Of a stretch of DNA of 64,000 nucleotides, positions 19,960-21,501 are shown one piece after another. The stretch spans positions 1-64,000 of the IMG/VR virus record IMGVR_UViG_3300015263_000599. The stretch is one strand, 5' to 3'. The stretch is from a virus. Under the pieces are notes generated by a model. It had not been told where the DNA came from and searched no databases. It saw only the letters and a list, made by a program, of their open reading frames with translations. Positions within the stretch are counted from its first letter, which is position 1. Every line of letters starts with the position of its first letter. Both the position numbers and the translations under genes were made by a program.

Positions 19960-20970
19960 CTATGCTGCTTCTGAGTTGTGTCCGGGATAATCTGTTGGTG
20001 GGAGAATCTCGGTTGTGTGACCCCCATGAGACAGTGCCCATGGTTGAGGCGTTGGAAGGCCCTCAGCCTCTCTCCACTTCTTCCAGAAGTGGTGGAGGAA
20101 AATCTTCCCTGCCTTGCGTCTCGCTCTCCGTTCTGCATGATACAGAGATTGAACACGCCGCTCAGATTTGTTTTTCTTGGCATCCTCTTCCATCTGCGTG
20201 AGAGATTTCGCCTTCTCTTCATCATAGATGTCACGATAGACAGGCGAGCGATGCTTGATGAACTGATCTGGGATCAACTCACAAACCAGTGTCTTCAATT
20301 TGCAATTCCAATTCGAAGCCTGCCCCTTCTGGCGACGAACGCACTTGCCGCCCTTGACATGCACGCCGCAATAGGCATACAAATCCGACACATTGTCGAA
20401 ACGGCTGATGTCGTTGACGTAAGAAATCAGACCCGCAGCGAGTGCAGGCCCCAAGCCCTTGACATGACTCATGAACTCAGTCCATACTTTGTAGTTCTTG
20501 AGTTCTTTCTTCATCTTGTTGAGAAGGGTCGTTTTTGCCTTCTCCAAAATCTCAAGATATTCCTGATTGTCCTCGTCCTCAGACGACCATTGACGGTTTT
20601 TGACAGCGGTAATCTCTTTGGTCAACTGGTGGTAGTTCGTCTGCAATTGTCGAAGTTTTGAATCCGATTTCATAGGACGAAACTTCTGAGGCGACTGTTG
20701 GTAGAGATCATAAATGATGATGGCATCATTGTCGTCTGTCTTCGGGTAAGCATACTTATCCCGATATTCAGCAGTGGCGTTGGGGGAACATCTCAAAACA
20801 TCGATCCCCTCTTCCAAAAAAGGTTTCGCCTTTTTATTTGGAATGTTCTCTGCCACGATCACCATTCCCTCTTGGGGCTTTGGCATCTTGTGCGTCATCT
20901 TCTTCCCATCCCAGACGGAAAGCTTCTCTTCGGTATGGCTCCAGTCAACTGCGTAGATCTTGGTGATCAT
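19960..20970 (-). CDS. tasR: TasR-like RNA-guided nuclease (RuvC + coiled coil + Nop domain; IS110-related)
   Basis: DEDD RuvC residues YAVDW / VAEN / KTDDNDA; VKGLGPALAAGLI and RFDNVSDLYAYCG Nop/IS110-like motifs; no obvious IS110 catalytic SG motif; adjacent dual-repeat array. Confidence 0.85.
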   Translation of the reverse strand: MITKIYAVDWSHTEEKLSVWDGKKMTHKMPKPQEGMVIVAENIPNKKAKPFLEEGIDVLRCSPNATAEYRDKYAYPKTDDNDAIIIYDLYQQSPQKFRPMKSDSKLRQLQTNYHQLTKEITAVKNRQWSSEDEDNQEYLEILEKAKTTLLNKMKKELKNYKVWTEFMSHVKGLGPALAAGLISYVNDISRFDNVSDLYAYCGVHVKGGKCVRRQKGQASNWNCKLKTLVCELIPDQFIKHRSPVYRDIYDEEKAKSLTQMEEDAKKNKSERRVQSLYHAERRARRKAGKIFLHHFWKKWREAEGLPTPQPWALSHGGHTTEILPPTDYPGHNSEAA

Positions 20971-21005
20971 CGTTTCTTCCTTGAAAAGAGTAATTTAAGA
21001 TGAGC

Positions 21006-21034
21006 ACAATACTTTAAGACACAAAATGCGCCAA
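21006..21034 (-). promoter_or_regulatory. Promoter TTGGCG-N17-TATTGT for tasR
   Basis: Direct reading. Confidence 0.6.
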
Positions 21035-21040
21035 GGCCAA

Positions 21041-21073
21041 AATTAAAGAACCCAGACCAACAGGTCTGGGTTC
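21041..21073 (-). terminator. Terminator closing the guide array
   Basis: GAACCCAGACC-TGTT-GGTCTGGGTTC then TTTAATTTT on minus strand. Confidence 0.75.
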
Positions 21074-21480
21074 GCACAATTGCCATGGCTTTTCAGCAAG
21101 ACCTGAAATGGCTCACACGCCTGATATGGCCTTTCGGCAAGAACTGGAATGGTTCACACGCCTGATATGGCCTTTCGGCAAATGGAATGTGGTTCGCACC
21201 CCGGTCGGGATCTTTCGAAAACGTATGTATTGGCTCGCAGTAAGTAGATGGCATCTCTGCACGCTCGGAGTGGCTCACATCGAAGCAGTGGTCTTTCGAC
21301 AACATGCAGGTGGTTCACACGTTTGCTCTGGTCTTTCGACAAAGCAAAGCTGGTTCGCATAAAAAAGATGGCCTCTCGGCATATGGTAGTTGGCTCACAC
21401 GTCGTGGGTGGCTTTTCAGCAAAACTACATTGGTTCACAAATGAGGAGTGGCTTTTCAGCATTGCTTCCCGTGGTTCGCC
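21067..21480 (-). repeat. TIGR-like dual-repeat guide RNA array, 10 units of 40-41 nt
   Basis: Minus strand alternates 9-nt repeat TGYGARCCA and 13-nt repeat TGNNGARANNCCA, separated by 20 variable 9-10 nt spacers. Confidence 0.92.
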
Positions 21481-21501
21481 ATCTTATACAATAACTGAAA
21501 C

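What the first reader, a model, noticed from the sequence alone, without database searches (positions are those of the whole stretch)
19960..21490. TIGR-TasR-like RNA-guided system: RuvC-Nop protein plus dual-spacer array with 40-nt units
Seen: a 336-aa protein that would be auto-annotated as an IS110 transposase. It has DEDD RuvC residues and GLG/RF..YCG motifs but no obvious catalytic-serine SG motif. Upstream on the same strand is a separately terminated array with a TATAAG -10-like element at 21483-21488. It has 10 units of CCA-spacerA-TG-NN-GARA-NN-CCA-spacerB-TG-YGAR. Spacer pairs (A/B, minus strand): CGGGAAGCAA/CTCCTCATT, ATGTAGTTT/CCCACGACG, ACTACCATA/TCTTTTTTA, GCTTTGCTT/GAGCAAACG, CCTGCATGT/CTGCTTCGA, CTCCGAGCG/TCTACTTAC, ATACATACGT/CGACCGGGG, CATTCCATT/TATCAGGCG, TTCCAGTTCT/TATCAGGCG, TTTCAGGTCT/TGGCAATTG. 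Established: TIGR-Tas systems (Nop-domain proteins related to IS110 and box C/D snoRNPs) use dual-repeat arrays with ~9-nt tandem spacers, processed to ~36-nt guides, for PAM-free DNA targeting. CRISPR finders would miss this array. Inference: a phage-encoded programmable nuclease, here a 40-41 nt variant, probably used against competing phages, mobile elements or host genes.
Basis: partly seen in the sequence, partly recalled or inferred. Interest (0 to 1): 0.95.

Follow-up and report, generated by a model that had tools for sequence, protein, structure and literature searches.

The report
Phage TIGR-TasR guide-RNA nuclease system
An uncultured large phage carries a well-formed TIGR-TasR system, a small RNA-guided DNA-cutting enzyme beside an array of ten dual-spacer guide RNAs; this kind of system was described in 2025, so the locus is a new example with a slightly longer, hairpin-containing guide, not a new kind.

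Summary

- **Protein.** The 336-aa ORF (19960-20970, minus strand) passes NCBI's curated TIGR-Tas endonuclease model (135 bits, cut-off 100) and fails the IS110 model (65 bits, cut-off 140). It aligns end to end with the solved TaTasR structure 9MTY (E 2.6e-80). It keeps the RuvC acidic residues D9, E41, D79 and D82.
- **Array.** The upstream array (21479-21068, minus strand) has ten units. Each has a 9-nt edge repeat, spacer A (9-10 nt), a 13-nt loop repeat and spacer B (9 nt), and the array has its own terminator.
- **Base pairs.** Across 37 units from three loci, all 185 predicted base-pair cells are paired and four of five pairs show compensatory changes.
- **Differences from the published description.** Units are 40-41 nt, not 36. 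The extra length is a 2-bp covarying stem capped by a GNRA-type tetraloop in the loop repeat. This variant is specific to the clade with at least 60% identity.
- **Solo units.** Two complete single units closed by 10-12-bp stems lie just upstream, outside the array.
- **Context.** The module sits in a variable island of the phage replication region.
- **Targets.** No natural target was found; every match was at chance level.

The scan has already reported TIGR-Tas loci in at least 17 other genomes. Verdict: new member of a known kind, moderate interest.

The parts
19960..20970 (-). tasR gene, 336 aa: N-terminal RuvC (D9, E41, D79, D82), coiled-coil hairpin (helices about 105-157), C-terminal Nop domain with a long C-terminal extension (H318 aligns with the processing His296 of SpTasH)
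   Evidence: NF052498 134.7 bits against cut-off 100. 9mty_A E 2.6e-80 over residues 5-325. Foldseek 9mty TM 0.74/0.84. D9, E41 and D82 are invariant in 16 homologues.
19904..19927 (-). terminator-like hairpin after tasR
   Evidence: 10-bp stem followed by a T-run
21006..21034 (-). promoter-like site for tasR (TTGGCG, 17 nt, TATTGT). The same 12-mer TTGGCGCATTTT precedes the HNH gene at 19873-19884.
   Evidence: Read from the sequence. Two exact 12-mer copies. The tool called the HNH copy as a promoter-like site. The function is inferred.
21068..21479 (-). dual-repeat TIGR array. It runs from a 5'-degenerate first edge repeat (GCGAACCA), through ten units of spacer A, 13-nt loop repeat, spacer B and 9-nt edge repeat, to a last edge repeat (TGCGAACCC) that merges into the terminator.
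   Evidence: base-pair counts
21199..21230 (-). unit 7, degenerate: the loop repeat is TTTCGAAAGATCC, with both box D and box C altered. It is probably a weak or dead guide.
21048..21073 (-). intrinsic terminator at the end of the array, overlapping the truncated last edge repeat
   Evidence: 11-bp stem followed by a T-run. Matches the layout described in Faure 2025.
21483..21488 (-). TATAAG, a -10-like hexamer 4 nt upstream of the first edge repeat. A start about 7 nt downstream would fall inside the truncated first edge repeat.
   Evidence: The sequence is present. There is no -35 element and the scan did not call it. Speculative.
21508..21538 (-). strong intrinsic terminator between the upstream operon (polA, orf191) and the array
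   Evidence: 13-bp stem, then TTTTTT
21568..21623 (-). solo stem-loop unit 2: 10-bp closing stem (two G-U pairs), CCA, ACGCCGAGG, TGCCGAAAGGCCA, CACACCGAC, TG. The 5' arm overlaps the stop codon of ORF 21615-22190.
   Evidence: Pattern match. The fold shows the stem, but its energy is not exceptional (z -1.1). A tasR-plus relative has a plain hairpin at the same place.
22218..22281 (-). solo stem-loop unit 1: 12-bp closing stem, AG-CCA, GATAGTTTC, TGTCGAAAGACCA, AAACATTAGT, TG-C. It lies between the polA stop and the orf191 start.
   Evidence: Pattern match. Fold -33.2 kcal/mol, z -6.3. A degenerate homologue sits at the same position in the tasR-plus relative L062. The tasR-minus relative L061, the only one read at this gap, has none.

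Best explanation
This is a functional, phage-encoded TIGR-TasR system of the dual-repeat class.

**Proposed mechanism (inferred from the published systems).**
1. The array is transcribed, either from an unidentified promoter just upstream or by read-through.
2. The transcript is bound by TasR and cut within each 9-nt edge repeat. This releases 40-41-nt tigRNAs of the form R-CCA, spacer A, UG-NN-GARA-N'N'-CCA, spacer B, UG-Y.
3. A TasR dimer holds one tigRNA. [quoted passage not shown] The other reads those of the loop repeat.
4. Spacer A pairs with one DNA strand and spacer B with the other strand of an adjacent half-site. The predicted target on one strand is 5'-A followed by revcomp(B)-3'.
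5. The two RuvC domains nick both strands, giving a staggered break with 3' overhangs.

**Shown here.** Family membership of the protein, intact catalytic residues, the array grammar, the base pairs supported by covariation, the transcription-unit layout, single copy, and no self-target.

**Inferred from the published systems.** Processing, dimer binding, target geometry and cleavage.

**Unknown.** The natural targets, and hence the biological role. The literature's leading idea is competition between mobile elements.
For: - **Curated HMM.** NF052498 (TIGR_Tas_endo) scores 134.7 bits against a cut-off of 100, covering profile positions 5-215 of 215.
- **Solved relative.** 9mty_A (TaTasR) matches at E 2.6e-80 over residues 5-325. 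D9 aligns with the catalytic D11, and the VAENIP and D-x-N-D motifs are conserved.
- **Fold.** The AlphaFold model has pLDDT 86.5. Its best fold match is 9mty at E 1.5e-25, TM 0.74/0.84 and 43% identity. IS621 scores only TM 0.58 at 15% identity.
- **Conservation.** D9, E41 and D82 are invariant in 16 homologues; position 79 is D or H.
- **Array anatomy.** It matches Faure 2025. Alternating repeats each begin with TG and end with CCA. Spacers are 9 nt. The first edge repeat is truncated and the last one runs into a terminator.
- **Base pairs.** All 185 cells are paired. Four of five pairs have compensatory changes. None of 500 shuffles reaches this.
- **Cross-unit pair.** In the window, the R of the preceding edge repeat pairs Watson-Crick with the Y of the following edge repeat in 10 of 10 units. 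Pairing within a single edge repeat would give three C-A mismatches. This is what is expected if each unit is excised as one tigRNA.
- **Relatives.** L002 and L009 (63% and 60% identical proteins) carry arrays of the same architecture with unrelated spacers.
- **Self-targets.** No site in the 94-kb genome matches any guide with 2 or fewer mismatches. This is consistent with an active nuclease aimed elsewhere.
Against: - No RNA or biochemical data exist for this locus.
- The array promoter is not identified.
- Unit 7 is degenerate.
- At the position of the processing Tyr of SpTasH (Y289), this protein has Trp (W311), as TaTasR does. The processing chemistry may therefore differ from TasH.
- The loop repeat is 4 nt longer than in the solved TaTasR complex. 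Binding geometry at that protomer is assumed, not shown.
- No natural target was found.
- TaTasR gave no protection against phage or conjugation in E. coli, so a defence-like role is not established even for the reference system.
Confidence: 0.88

Rival explanations
1. It is an IS110-family insertion sequence. On this reading the protein is an RNA-guided (bridge RNA) recombinase and the repeats are unrelated or form part of its non-coding RNA.
For: Pfam PF01548 and PF02371 score just above their cut-offs. PHROGs labels the protein 'transposase'. IS621 structures are the second-best group of fold matches, interleaved with TasH structures.
Against: - The NCBIfam IS110 equivalog scores 65.4 bits against a cut-off of 140, and only over the RuvC part.
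- IS621 is absent from the sequence matches at E up to 1.
- The fold match to IS621 is far weaker than to TasR: TM 0.58 at 15% identity against 0.84 at 43%.
- The gene is single-copy in the record.
- It sits at the same syntenic place in a related phage, with arrays instead of IS ends.
Confidence: 0.02
2. It is a TIGR-Tas system that acts mainly as an RNA-guided DNA binder or transcriptional repressor, as shown for nuclease-dead TasR and TasA, and not as a cutter. It would regulate phage or host genes.
For: Xu et al. 2026 (bioRxiv 10.64898/2026.09.09.750476) show repression by catalytically inactive TasR and by TasA. TaTasR cleavage was too weak to block phage or conjugation in E. coli. The solo units embedded in the polA-orf191 transcript hint at links with gene expression.
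Against: - The acidic residues D9, E41, D79 and D82 are all present. D9, E41 and D82 are invariant across the clade, unlike the repressor TasRs, which carry substitutions.
- No guide matches the phage's own 94 kb at 2 or fewer mismatches, so self-regulation is unsupported.
- Host targets could not be tested because the host is unknown.
Confidence: 0.07
3. It is a decaying or orphaned relic: the array and gene are no longer functional.
For: Unit 7 has degenerate boxes. Some spacers are duplicated (units 8-10). The related L062 upstream array contains several degenerate boxes.
Against: - The ORF is intact and all catalytic and RNA-binding hallmarks are conserved.
- Nine of ten units, plus both solo units, keep every box and every pair.
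- Compensatory changes indicate ongoing selection on RNA structure.
Confidence: 0.03

Closest known systems
TaTIGR-TasR (Thermoproteota archaeon LB_CRA_1; PDB 9MTY; Faure et al. 2025, Science, PMC12045711)
   Same: - Same domain order (RuvC, coiled coil, Nop) and about the same length (336 against 331 aa).
- About 43% identity with an end-to-end alignment.
- The catalytic Asp is conserved (D9 here, D11 there).
- Dual-repeat array with a 9-nt edge repeat of the form TG..CCA, 9-nt spacers, and UG and CCA boxes in both repeats.
- A covarying extra pair in the edge repeat, and a terminator after a truncated last edge repeat.
   Different: - The loop repeat is 13 nt (UG, 2-bp covarying stem, GARA tetraloop, CCA) instead of the 9-nt A-rich loop of canonical 36-nt units (read here in the 41%-identical relative L003), so units are 40-41 nt, not 36.
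- Four units have a 10-nt spacer A.
- The array is upstream of tasR here.
- The Nop domain has a segment of about 13 aa (residues about 261-274) that is missing in TaTasR-like proteins.
- The host is an uncultured tailed-phage-like virus, not an archaeon.
Stem-loop TIGR systems (PlTasA, PateTasR, CsTasR; Faure 2025 section 9; Xu et al. 2026, bioRxiv 10.64898/2026.09.09.750476)
   Same: [quoted passage not shown]
- They lie at 'flexible genomic positions' outside an array.
- A short stem between the spacers is also seen in CsTasR guides.
   Different: - Here they accompany a dual-repeat array and a nuclease-intact TasR that keeps the long C-terminal processing extension.
- Xu et al. report that this extension is absent from all stem-loop clades and argue it would leave no room for a distal stem.
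- Box C is CCA, not CUU.
IS110/IS621 bridge-RNA recombinases
   Same: Distantly related RuvC-like DEDD domain and Nop-type RNA-binding domain. This is why Pfam and PHROGs give 'transposase' labels.
   Different: - The IS110 equivalog model is failed (65 against 140 bits).
- No serine recombinase (Tnp) signature was detected.
- Single copy.
- Accompanied by a multi-unit guide array, not one bridge RNA.
SpTIGR-TasH (Salicola phage CGphi29)
   Same: Phage-encoded dual-repeat TIGR system. The Nop domain is homologous (E 1.7e-11). The processing His is conserved (H296 there, H318 here).
   Different: The nuclease is HNH instead of RuvC. Spacers are 8 nt. The Tyr of the Y/H dyad aligns with Trp here.

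Membership tests
TIGR-Tas (TasR subtype, dual-repeat class) | Tas protein with a Nop-type RNA-binding domain that passes a family model | tested here: met
   NF052498 134.7 bits against cut-off 100. The same model finds one locus in the genome at 135.9 bits.
TIGR-Tas (TasR subtype, dual-repeat class) | N-terminal RuvC domain with the catalytic acidic residues (TaTasR D11 and partners) | tested here: met
   D9 aligns with D11 of 9mty. E41, D79 and D82 align with conserved acidic residues. D9, E41 and D82 are invariant in 16 homologues. Sequence level only; activity was not assayed.
TIGR-Tas (TasR subtype, dual-repeat class) | Overall fold of TasR (RuvC, coiled-coil dimerisation hairpin, Nop C-terminal domain) | tested here: met
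   AF2 model pLDDT 86.5. Foldseek top hit is 9mty, E 1.5e-25, TMt 0.84.
TIGR-Tas (TasR subtype, dual-repeat class) | Adjacent array of two alternating short repeats (edge and loop), each starting with UG (box D) and ending with CCA (box C), separated by spacers of about 9 nt | tested here: met
   Ten units. The loop repeat is 13 nt, one more than the published 8-12 nt range.
TIGR-Tas (TasR subtype, dual-repeat class) | Box C/D G-C pair plus a covarying extra pair joining the two ends of a unit | tested here: met
   Pair 1-38: GC 25, AU 8, GU 3, UA 1. Pair 2-37: CG 36, UA 1. No unpaired cell in 37 units.
TIGR-Tas (TasR subtype, dual-repeat class) | [quoted passage not shown] | tested here: met
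   The first edge repeat is GCGAACCA (the TG is lost). The last, TGCGAACCC, runs into the hairpin at 21073-21048.
TIGR-Tas (TasR subtype, dual-repeat class) | Array processed into unit-length tigRNAs bound by Tas; guide-dependent cleavage of double-stranded DNA | not testable with these tools
TIGR-Tas (TasR subtype, dual-repeat class) | Y/H processing dyad in the C-terminal loop (defined in SpTasH: Y289, H296) | tested here: inconclusive
   H318 aligns with H296. W311 aligns with Y289. TasR-clade homologues also have W there, while TasA-type relatives have Y.
IS110 family RNA-guided transposase | Passes the IS110 equivalog model, including the C-terminal serine Tnp domain | tested here: not met
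   NF033542 scores 65.4 bits against cut-off 140; its best-scoring stretch covers residues 48-155. No IS110 structure appears among the sequence matches at E up to 1.
IS110 family RNA-guided transposase | Mobile, multi-copy element | tested here: not met
   One copy in the 94,452-b record. The gene sits at a syntenic position in a related phage. The record is only about 67% complete, so this test is limited.
Stem-loop TIGR guides (for the two solo units) | [quoted passage not shown] | tested here: met
   Stems of 12 bp and 10 bp. The loop repeats are identical to array variants.
Stem-loop TIGR guides (for the two solo units) | Partner Tas protein lacks the C-terminal processing loop (Xu et al. 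2026) | tested here: not met
   This TasR keeps about 30 residues after the last Nop helix, including H318. Only one tas gene is present in the record.

The most novel reading that the evidence does not exclude
One nuclease-intact, dual-repeat-type TasR may serve two guide formats at once. The first is 40-41-nt array guides whose loop repeat has grown a covarying 2-bp stem with a GNRA-type tetraloop. The second is single stem-loop guides embedded in the neighbouring polA-orf191 transcript. If so, this locus would be a living intermediate between the two published TIGR architectures. It would contradict the proposed rule that the C-terminal processing loop and distal stems are mutually exclusive. 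The near-duplicate units 8-10 would further suggest that arrays grow by tandem unit duplication followed by spacer mutation, not by acquisition of new spacers from other DNA.
Probability: 0.3. Interest if true: 0.6.

Novelty: new member of a known kind. Interest (0 to 1): 0.4.

Why it matters
TIGR-Tas systems are compact, PAM-free RNA-guided nucleases of current interest for genome editing. Their natural targets, their array growth and the link between their two guide architectures are open questions.

This locus adds a close relative of the best-characterised enzyme, TaTasR, at 43% identity. It tolerates a longer, hairpinned loop repeat, which is useful for guide engineering. It may also use stem-closed single guides.

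The locus does not change the picture of what TIGR-Tas is. It does not reveal targets either.

Tried and rejected
**Target searches (all at chance level)**
- Self-targets in the 94-kb genome, both spacer orders, gaps of 0-2 nt: only four hits at 3 mismatches, against about 3.9 expected by chance. The solo guides gave one hit at 3 mismatches.
- Targets in 176 kb of related loci at 2 or fewer mismatches: none.
- Exact-target scans of IMG/VR for unit 2, unit 5, solo 1 and solo 2 gave 1, 1, 3 and 1 hits. The contigs are unrelated, with GC of 37-66% and dissimilar flanks.
- A scan of 185,579 species genomes for the unit 1 target gave seven hits in seven unrelated taxa.

**Host and relatives**
- Host assignment failed. 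There is no DNA match in cultured phages. The best helicase match is 34% identical, to an uncultured 595-kb phage. No close TasR exists in cultured phages. No relative was found in species genomes.
- A single-protein search of IMG/VR found nothing. Searching with a profile alignment was needed.

The loci of the closest homologues P0002-P0012 therefore could not be read.
There are no expression or processing data.

**Ideas rejected**
- The idea was that the 13-aa Nop insertion co-varies with the longer loop repeat. TasA-type relatives with 9-nt loop repeats carry segments of similar or greater length at the same place, so the correlation holds only within TasR.
- The idea was that a CUU processing motif marks the solo stems. 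It is present near both stems but on different sides, and it is too short to be meaningful.

**Supplement search**
- The held supplements of Faure 2025 contain none of the four related contig or sample ids searched for (L002, L009, L036, L003) and none of the searched loop-repeat sequences. Table S1 is stored truncated.
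Full report
**Observation**

- The minus strand of 19960-20970 encodes a 336-aa protein.
- Upstream on the same strand, from 21479 to 21068, a regex parse recovers ten units. 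Each unit consists of spacer A, a 13-nt loop repeat, spacer B and a 9-nt edge repeat.
- The edge repeat reads TG-Y-GA-R-CCA. The loop repeat reads TG-NN-GARA-N'N'-CCA.
- Unit 7 has a degenerate loop repeat (TTTCGAAAGATCC). Spacer A is 10 nt in units 1, 7, 9 and 10.
- The complete unit pattern is not expected by chance: 0.0 matches on average in 50 shuffles of the 94-kb genome, against 11 real ones.
- Tandem Repeats Finder sees only the last 2.4 units. This confirms that ordinary repeat finders miss the array.
- Terminator-like hairpins bracket the array (21538-21508 before it, 21073-21048 at its end) and follow the gene (19927-19904).
- The TATAAG at 21488-21483 is there. It has no -35 partner and was not called by the promoter scan.
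- A better promoter-like site (TTGGCG, 17 nt, TATTGT; 21034-21006) precedes tasR. Its 12-mer TTGGCGCATTTT recurs exactly before the next gene.

**The protein**

- Pfam gives only marginal IS110-type hits and PHROGs says 'transposase'.
- NCBIfam's equivalog for the TIGR-Tas endonuclease (NF052498) scores 134.7 bits against a cut-off of 100. The IS110 equivalog scores 65.4 bits against 140.
- Against solved structures the protein matches chain A of 9MTY at E 2.6e-80 over residues 5-325. 9MTY is the TaTasR-tigRNA-DNA complex.
  - D9 aligns with D11, the residue whose mutation abolishes cleavage (Faure 2025, PMC12045711).
  - The VAENIP and D-x-N-D motifs are conserved.
  - No IS110 structure appears among the matches at E up to 1.
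- An AlphaFold model built on 16 homologues (pLDDT 86.5) has 9MTY as its best fold match (E 1.5e-25, TM 0.74/0.84). IS621 and TasH structures follow at E about 1e-8.
- In the homologue alignment D9, E41 and D82 are invariant and position 79 is D or H.
- H318 aligns with the tigRNA-processing His296 of SpTasH. The Tyr289 position is Trp here, as in TaTasR.
- The gene is single-copy in its record, an IMG/VR virus contig of 94,452 b estimated to be 67% complete.

**The guide RNA model**

I aligned 37 units with 9/9 spacers from the window and from two related loci, L002 and L009 (alignment A2). I then counted five pairs:
- the box D G with the first box C C, at the unit ends and in the loop repeat;
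- the R-Y pair next to the end boxes;
- the two NN-N'N' pairs of the loop repeat.

All 185 cells are standard pairs. Four of five pairs have changes on both sides. None of 500 shuffles reaches the observed values, and sliding the partners destroys the pairing.

In the window, the R of the edge repeat before a unit pairs Watson-Crick with the Y of the edge repeat after it in 10 of 10 units. Pairing within one edge repeat would give three C-A mismatches (read). This is the signature expected if each unit is excised in mid-edge-repeat and its two ends pair, as seen in the TaTasR structure. It also fixes the register: A and B as listed belong to the same guide.

**Differences from the published description**

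- Faure et al. describe repeats of 8-12 nt and 36-nt tigRNAs. Xu et al. 2026 speak of a 'uniform 36-nt guide' in dual-repeat systems.
- Here the loop repeat is 13 nt because a 2-bp covarying stem capped by GAAA or GAGA is inserted between the boxes. Units are therefore 40-41 nt.
- The same architecture is found beside the 63%- and 60%-identical proteins in L002 and L009, with unrelated spacers and arrays on both sides of the gene.
- Relatives at 45% identity or less have the canonical 9-nt loop and 36-nt units.
- Proteins of the 40-nt clade carry about 13 extra residues around positions 261-274 compared with TaTasR-like proteins. TasA-type relatives with 9-nt loop repeats also have long segments there, so I do not claim co-variation.

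**Solo units**

Following a lead from two first-stage notes on this window, I found two further complete units outside the array, on the same strand within 800 nt of it.
- **Unit at 22218-22281.** It lies between the polA stop and the next ORF and is closed by a 12-bp stem (-33.2 kcal/mol, z -6.3).
- **Unit at 21568-21623.** It is closed by a 10-bp stem whose 5' arm covers the stop codon of ORF 21615-22190. Its fold energy is unremarkable (z -1.1).
- Both keep CCA, UG, the adjacent R-Y pair and a loop repeat identical to array variants.
- In the tasR-plus relative L062, a degenerate homologue of the first unit occupies the same intergenic gap (loop repeat intact, 5-bp stem, box C lost). The tasR-minus relative L061, whose gap I read, has nothing there, and a pattern scan found no units in any of the five tasR-minus loci.
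- At the end of the orf191 homologue, L062 has a plain hairpin where the window has the unit inside a hairpin loop.
- These look like stem-loop tigRNAs. The only Tas protein in the record keeps the long C-terminal extension, which Xu et al. find absent from all stem-loop clades. Whether this TasR uses them is open.

**Context**

- The neighbours are replication and recombination genes: a DnaB-like helicase, family A polymerase, UvsX-like recombinase, other helicases, NUDIX and HNH. No DNA match to any cultured phage was found, and the best helicase match in that collection is 34% identical.
- polA-orf191 is conserved in six viral contigs. Two of them go straight from orf191 to DnaB.
- The window has the island solo unit, terminator, array, tasR, HNH, NUDIX and orf241 between orf191 and DnaB.
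- The TIGR-Tas module is therefore accessory cargo in a variable spot of the replication module.

**Targets**

- From the published 8-nt 3' overhang and the 'C - 5' cleavage rule, I derive that the target reads 5'-A followed by revcomp(B)-3' on one strand.
- No such site occurs at 2 or fewer mismatches, in either order and with gaps of 0-2 nt, in the phage's own 94 kb or in 176 kb of related loci.
- Exact scans of IMG/VR for four guides and of the species-genome collection for one guide returned 1-7 hits each, in unrelated contigs and taxa. This is at or below what an 18-19-mer gives by chance.
- The natural targets remain unknown, as the literature also reports.

**Verdict**

- This is a real, well-formed TIGR-TasR system and a new member of a family published in 2025. 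NCBI already has a naming model for it, and this scan has met the family in at least 17 other genomes.
- Its points of interest are modest:
  - the hairpinned 13-nt loop repeat and 40-41-nt units;
  - the coexistence with stem-closed solo units;
  - locally duplicated units (8-10) that hint at array growth by duplication.

Noticed in passing
window 21077-21193 (units 8-10); L002 4850-4900; L003 3960-4440: Neighbouring units are near-duplicates, spacers included. Units 8 and 9 share spacer B (TATCAGGCG). The spacer A sequences of units 9 and 10 differ at 2 of 10 positions (TRF: 91% over 2.4 copies). L002 repeats AAGATCGTG 40 nt apart. L003 has a multi-unit segment duplicated with single-base spacer changes. 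Similar-spacer pairs exceed the shuffled expectation (2 against 0.4; 2 against 0.3; 5 against 2.2). This hints that TIGR arrays grow by tandem duplication followed by spacer mutation.
   Followed up: partly
window 18096-21623, compared with L065 and L066: The TIGR-Tas module, an HNH gene, a NUDIX gene and a 241-aa ORF form a variable island between orf191 and the DnaB-like helicase. Two related viral contigs join orf191 directly to DnaB.
   Followed up: partly
window 19276-19830 (-) and 19873-19884: An HNH endonuclease gene lies between tasR and NUDIX. It is preceded by the same 12-mer (TTGGCGCATTTT) and promoter-like layout as tasR. The related phage L062 has a second array, not an HNH gene, at this place. 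It is possibly a mobile homing-type insertion.
   Followed up: no
It is conserved (59-73% identity) immediately downstream of polA in six viral contigs. In this phage it is bracketed by the two solo guide units.
   Followed up: partly
TasR residues about 261-274 (window about 20149-20190): A basic segment of about 13 aa (EEDAKKNKSERRVQ) is present in the 40-nt-unit TasR clade and missing in TaTasR-like proteins. In SpTasH the aligned segment holds K233, which lies near the tigRNA ends. By the two-fold symmetry of the dimer it could face the longer loop hairpin. This is untested.
   Followed up: partly
L062 3120-3460: The upstream array of the related phage contains several units with degenerate boxes (TCA, CTA or CCC for CCA; AG or CG for TG). 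It starts directly after a hairpin that lacks a T-run. This suggests read-through transcription from orf191 in that phage.
   Followed up: no
TasR W311 and H318; alignment: All TasR-type sequences have Trp where TasA-type relatives and SpTasH have the processing Tyr. The His is kept in all but one divergent homologue. tigRNA maturation chemistry may therefore differ between TasR and TasH/TasA.
   Followed up: no
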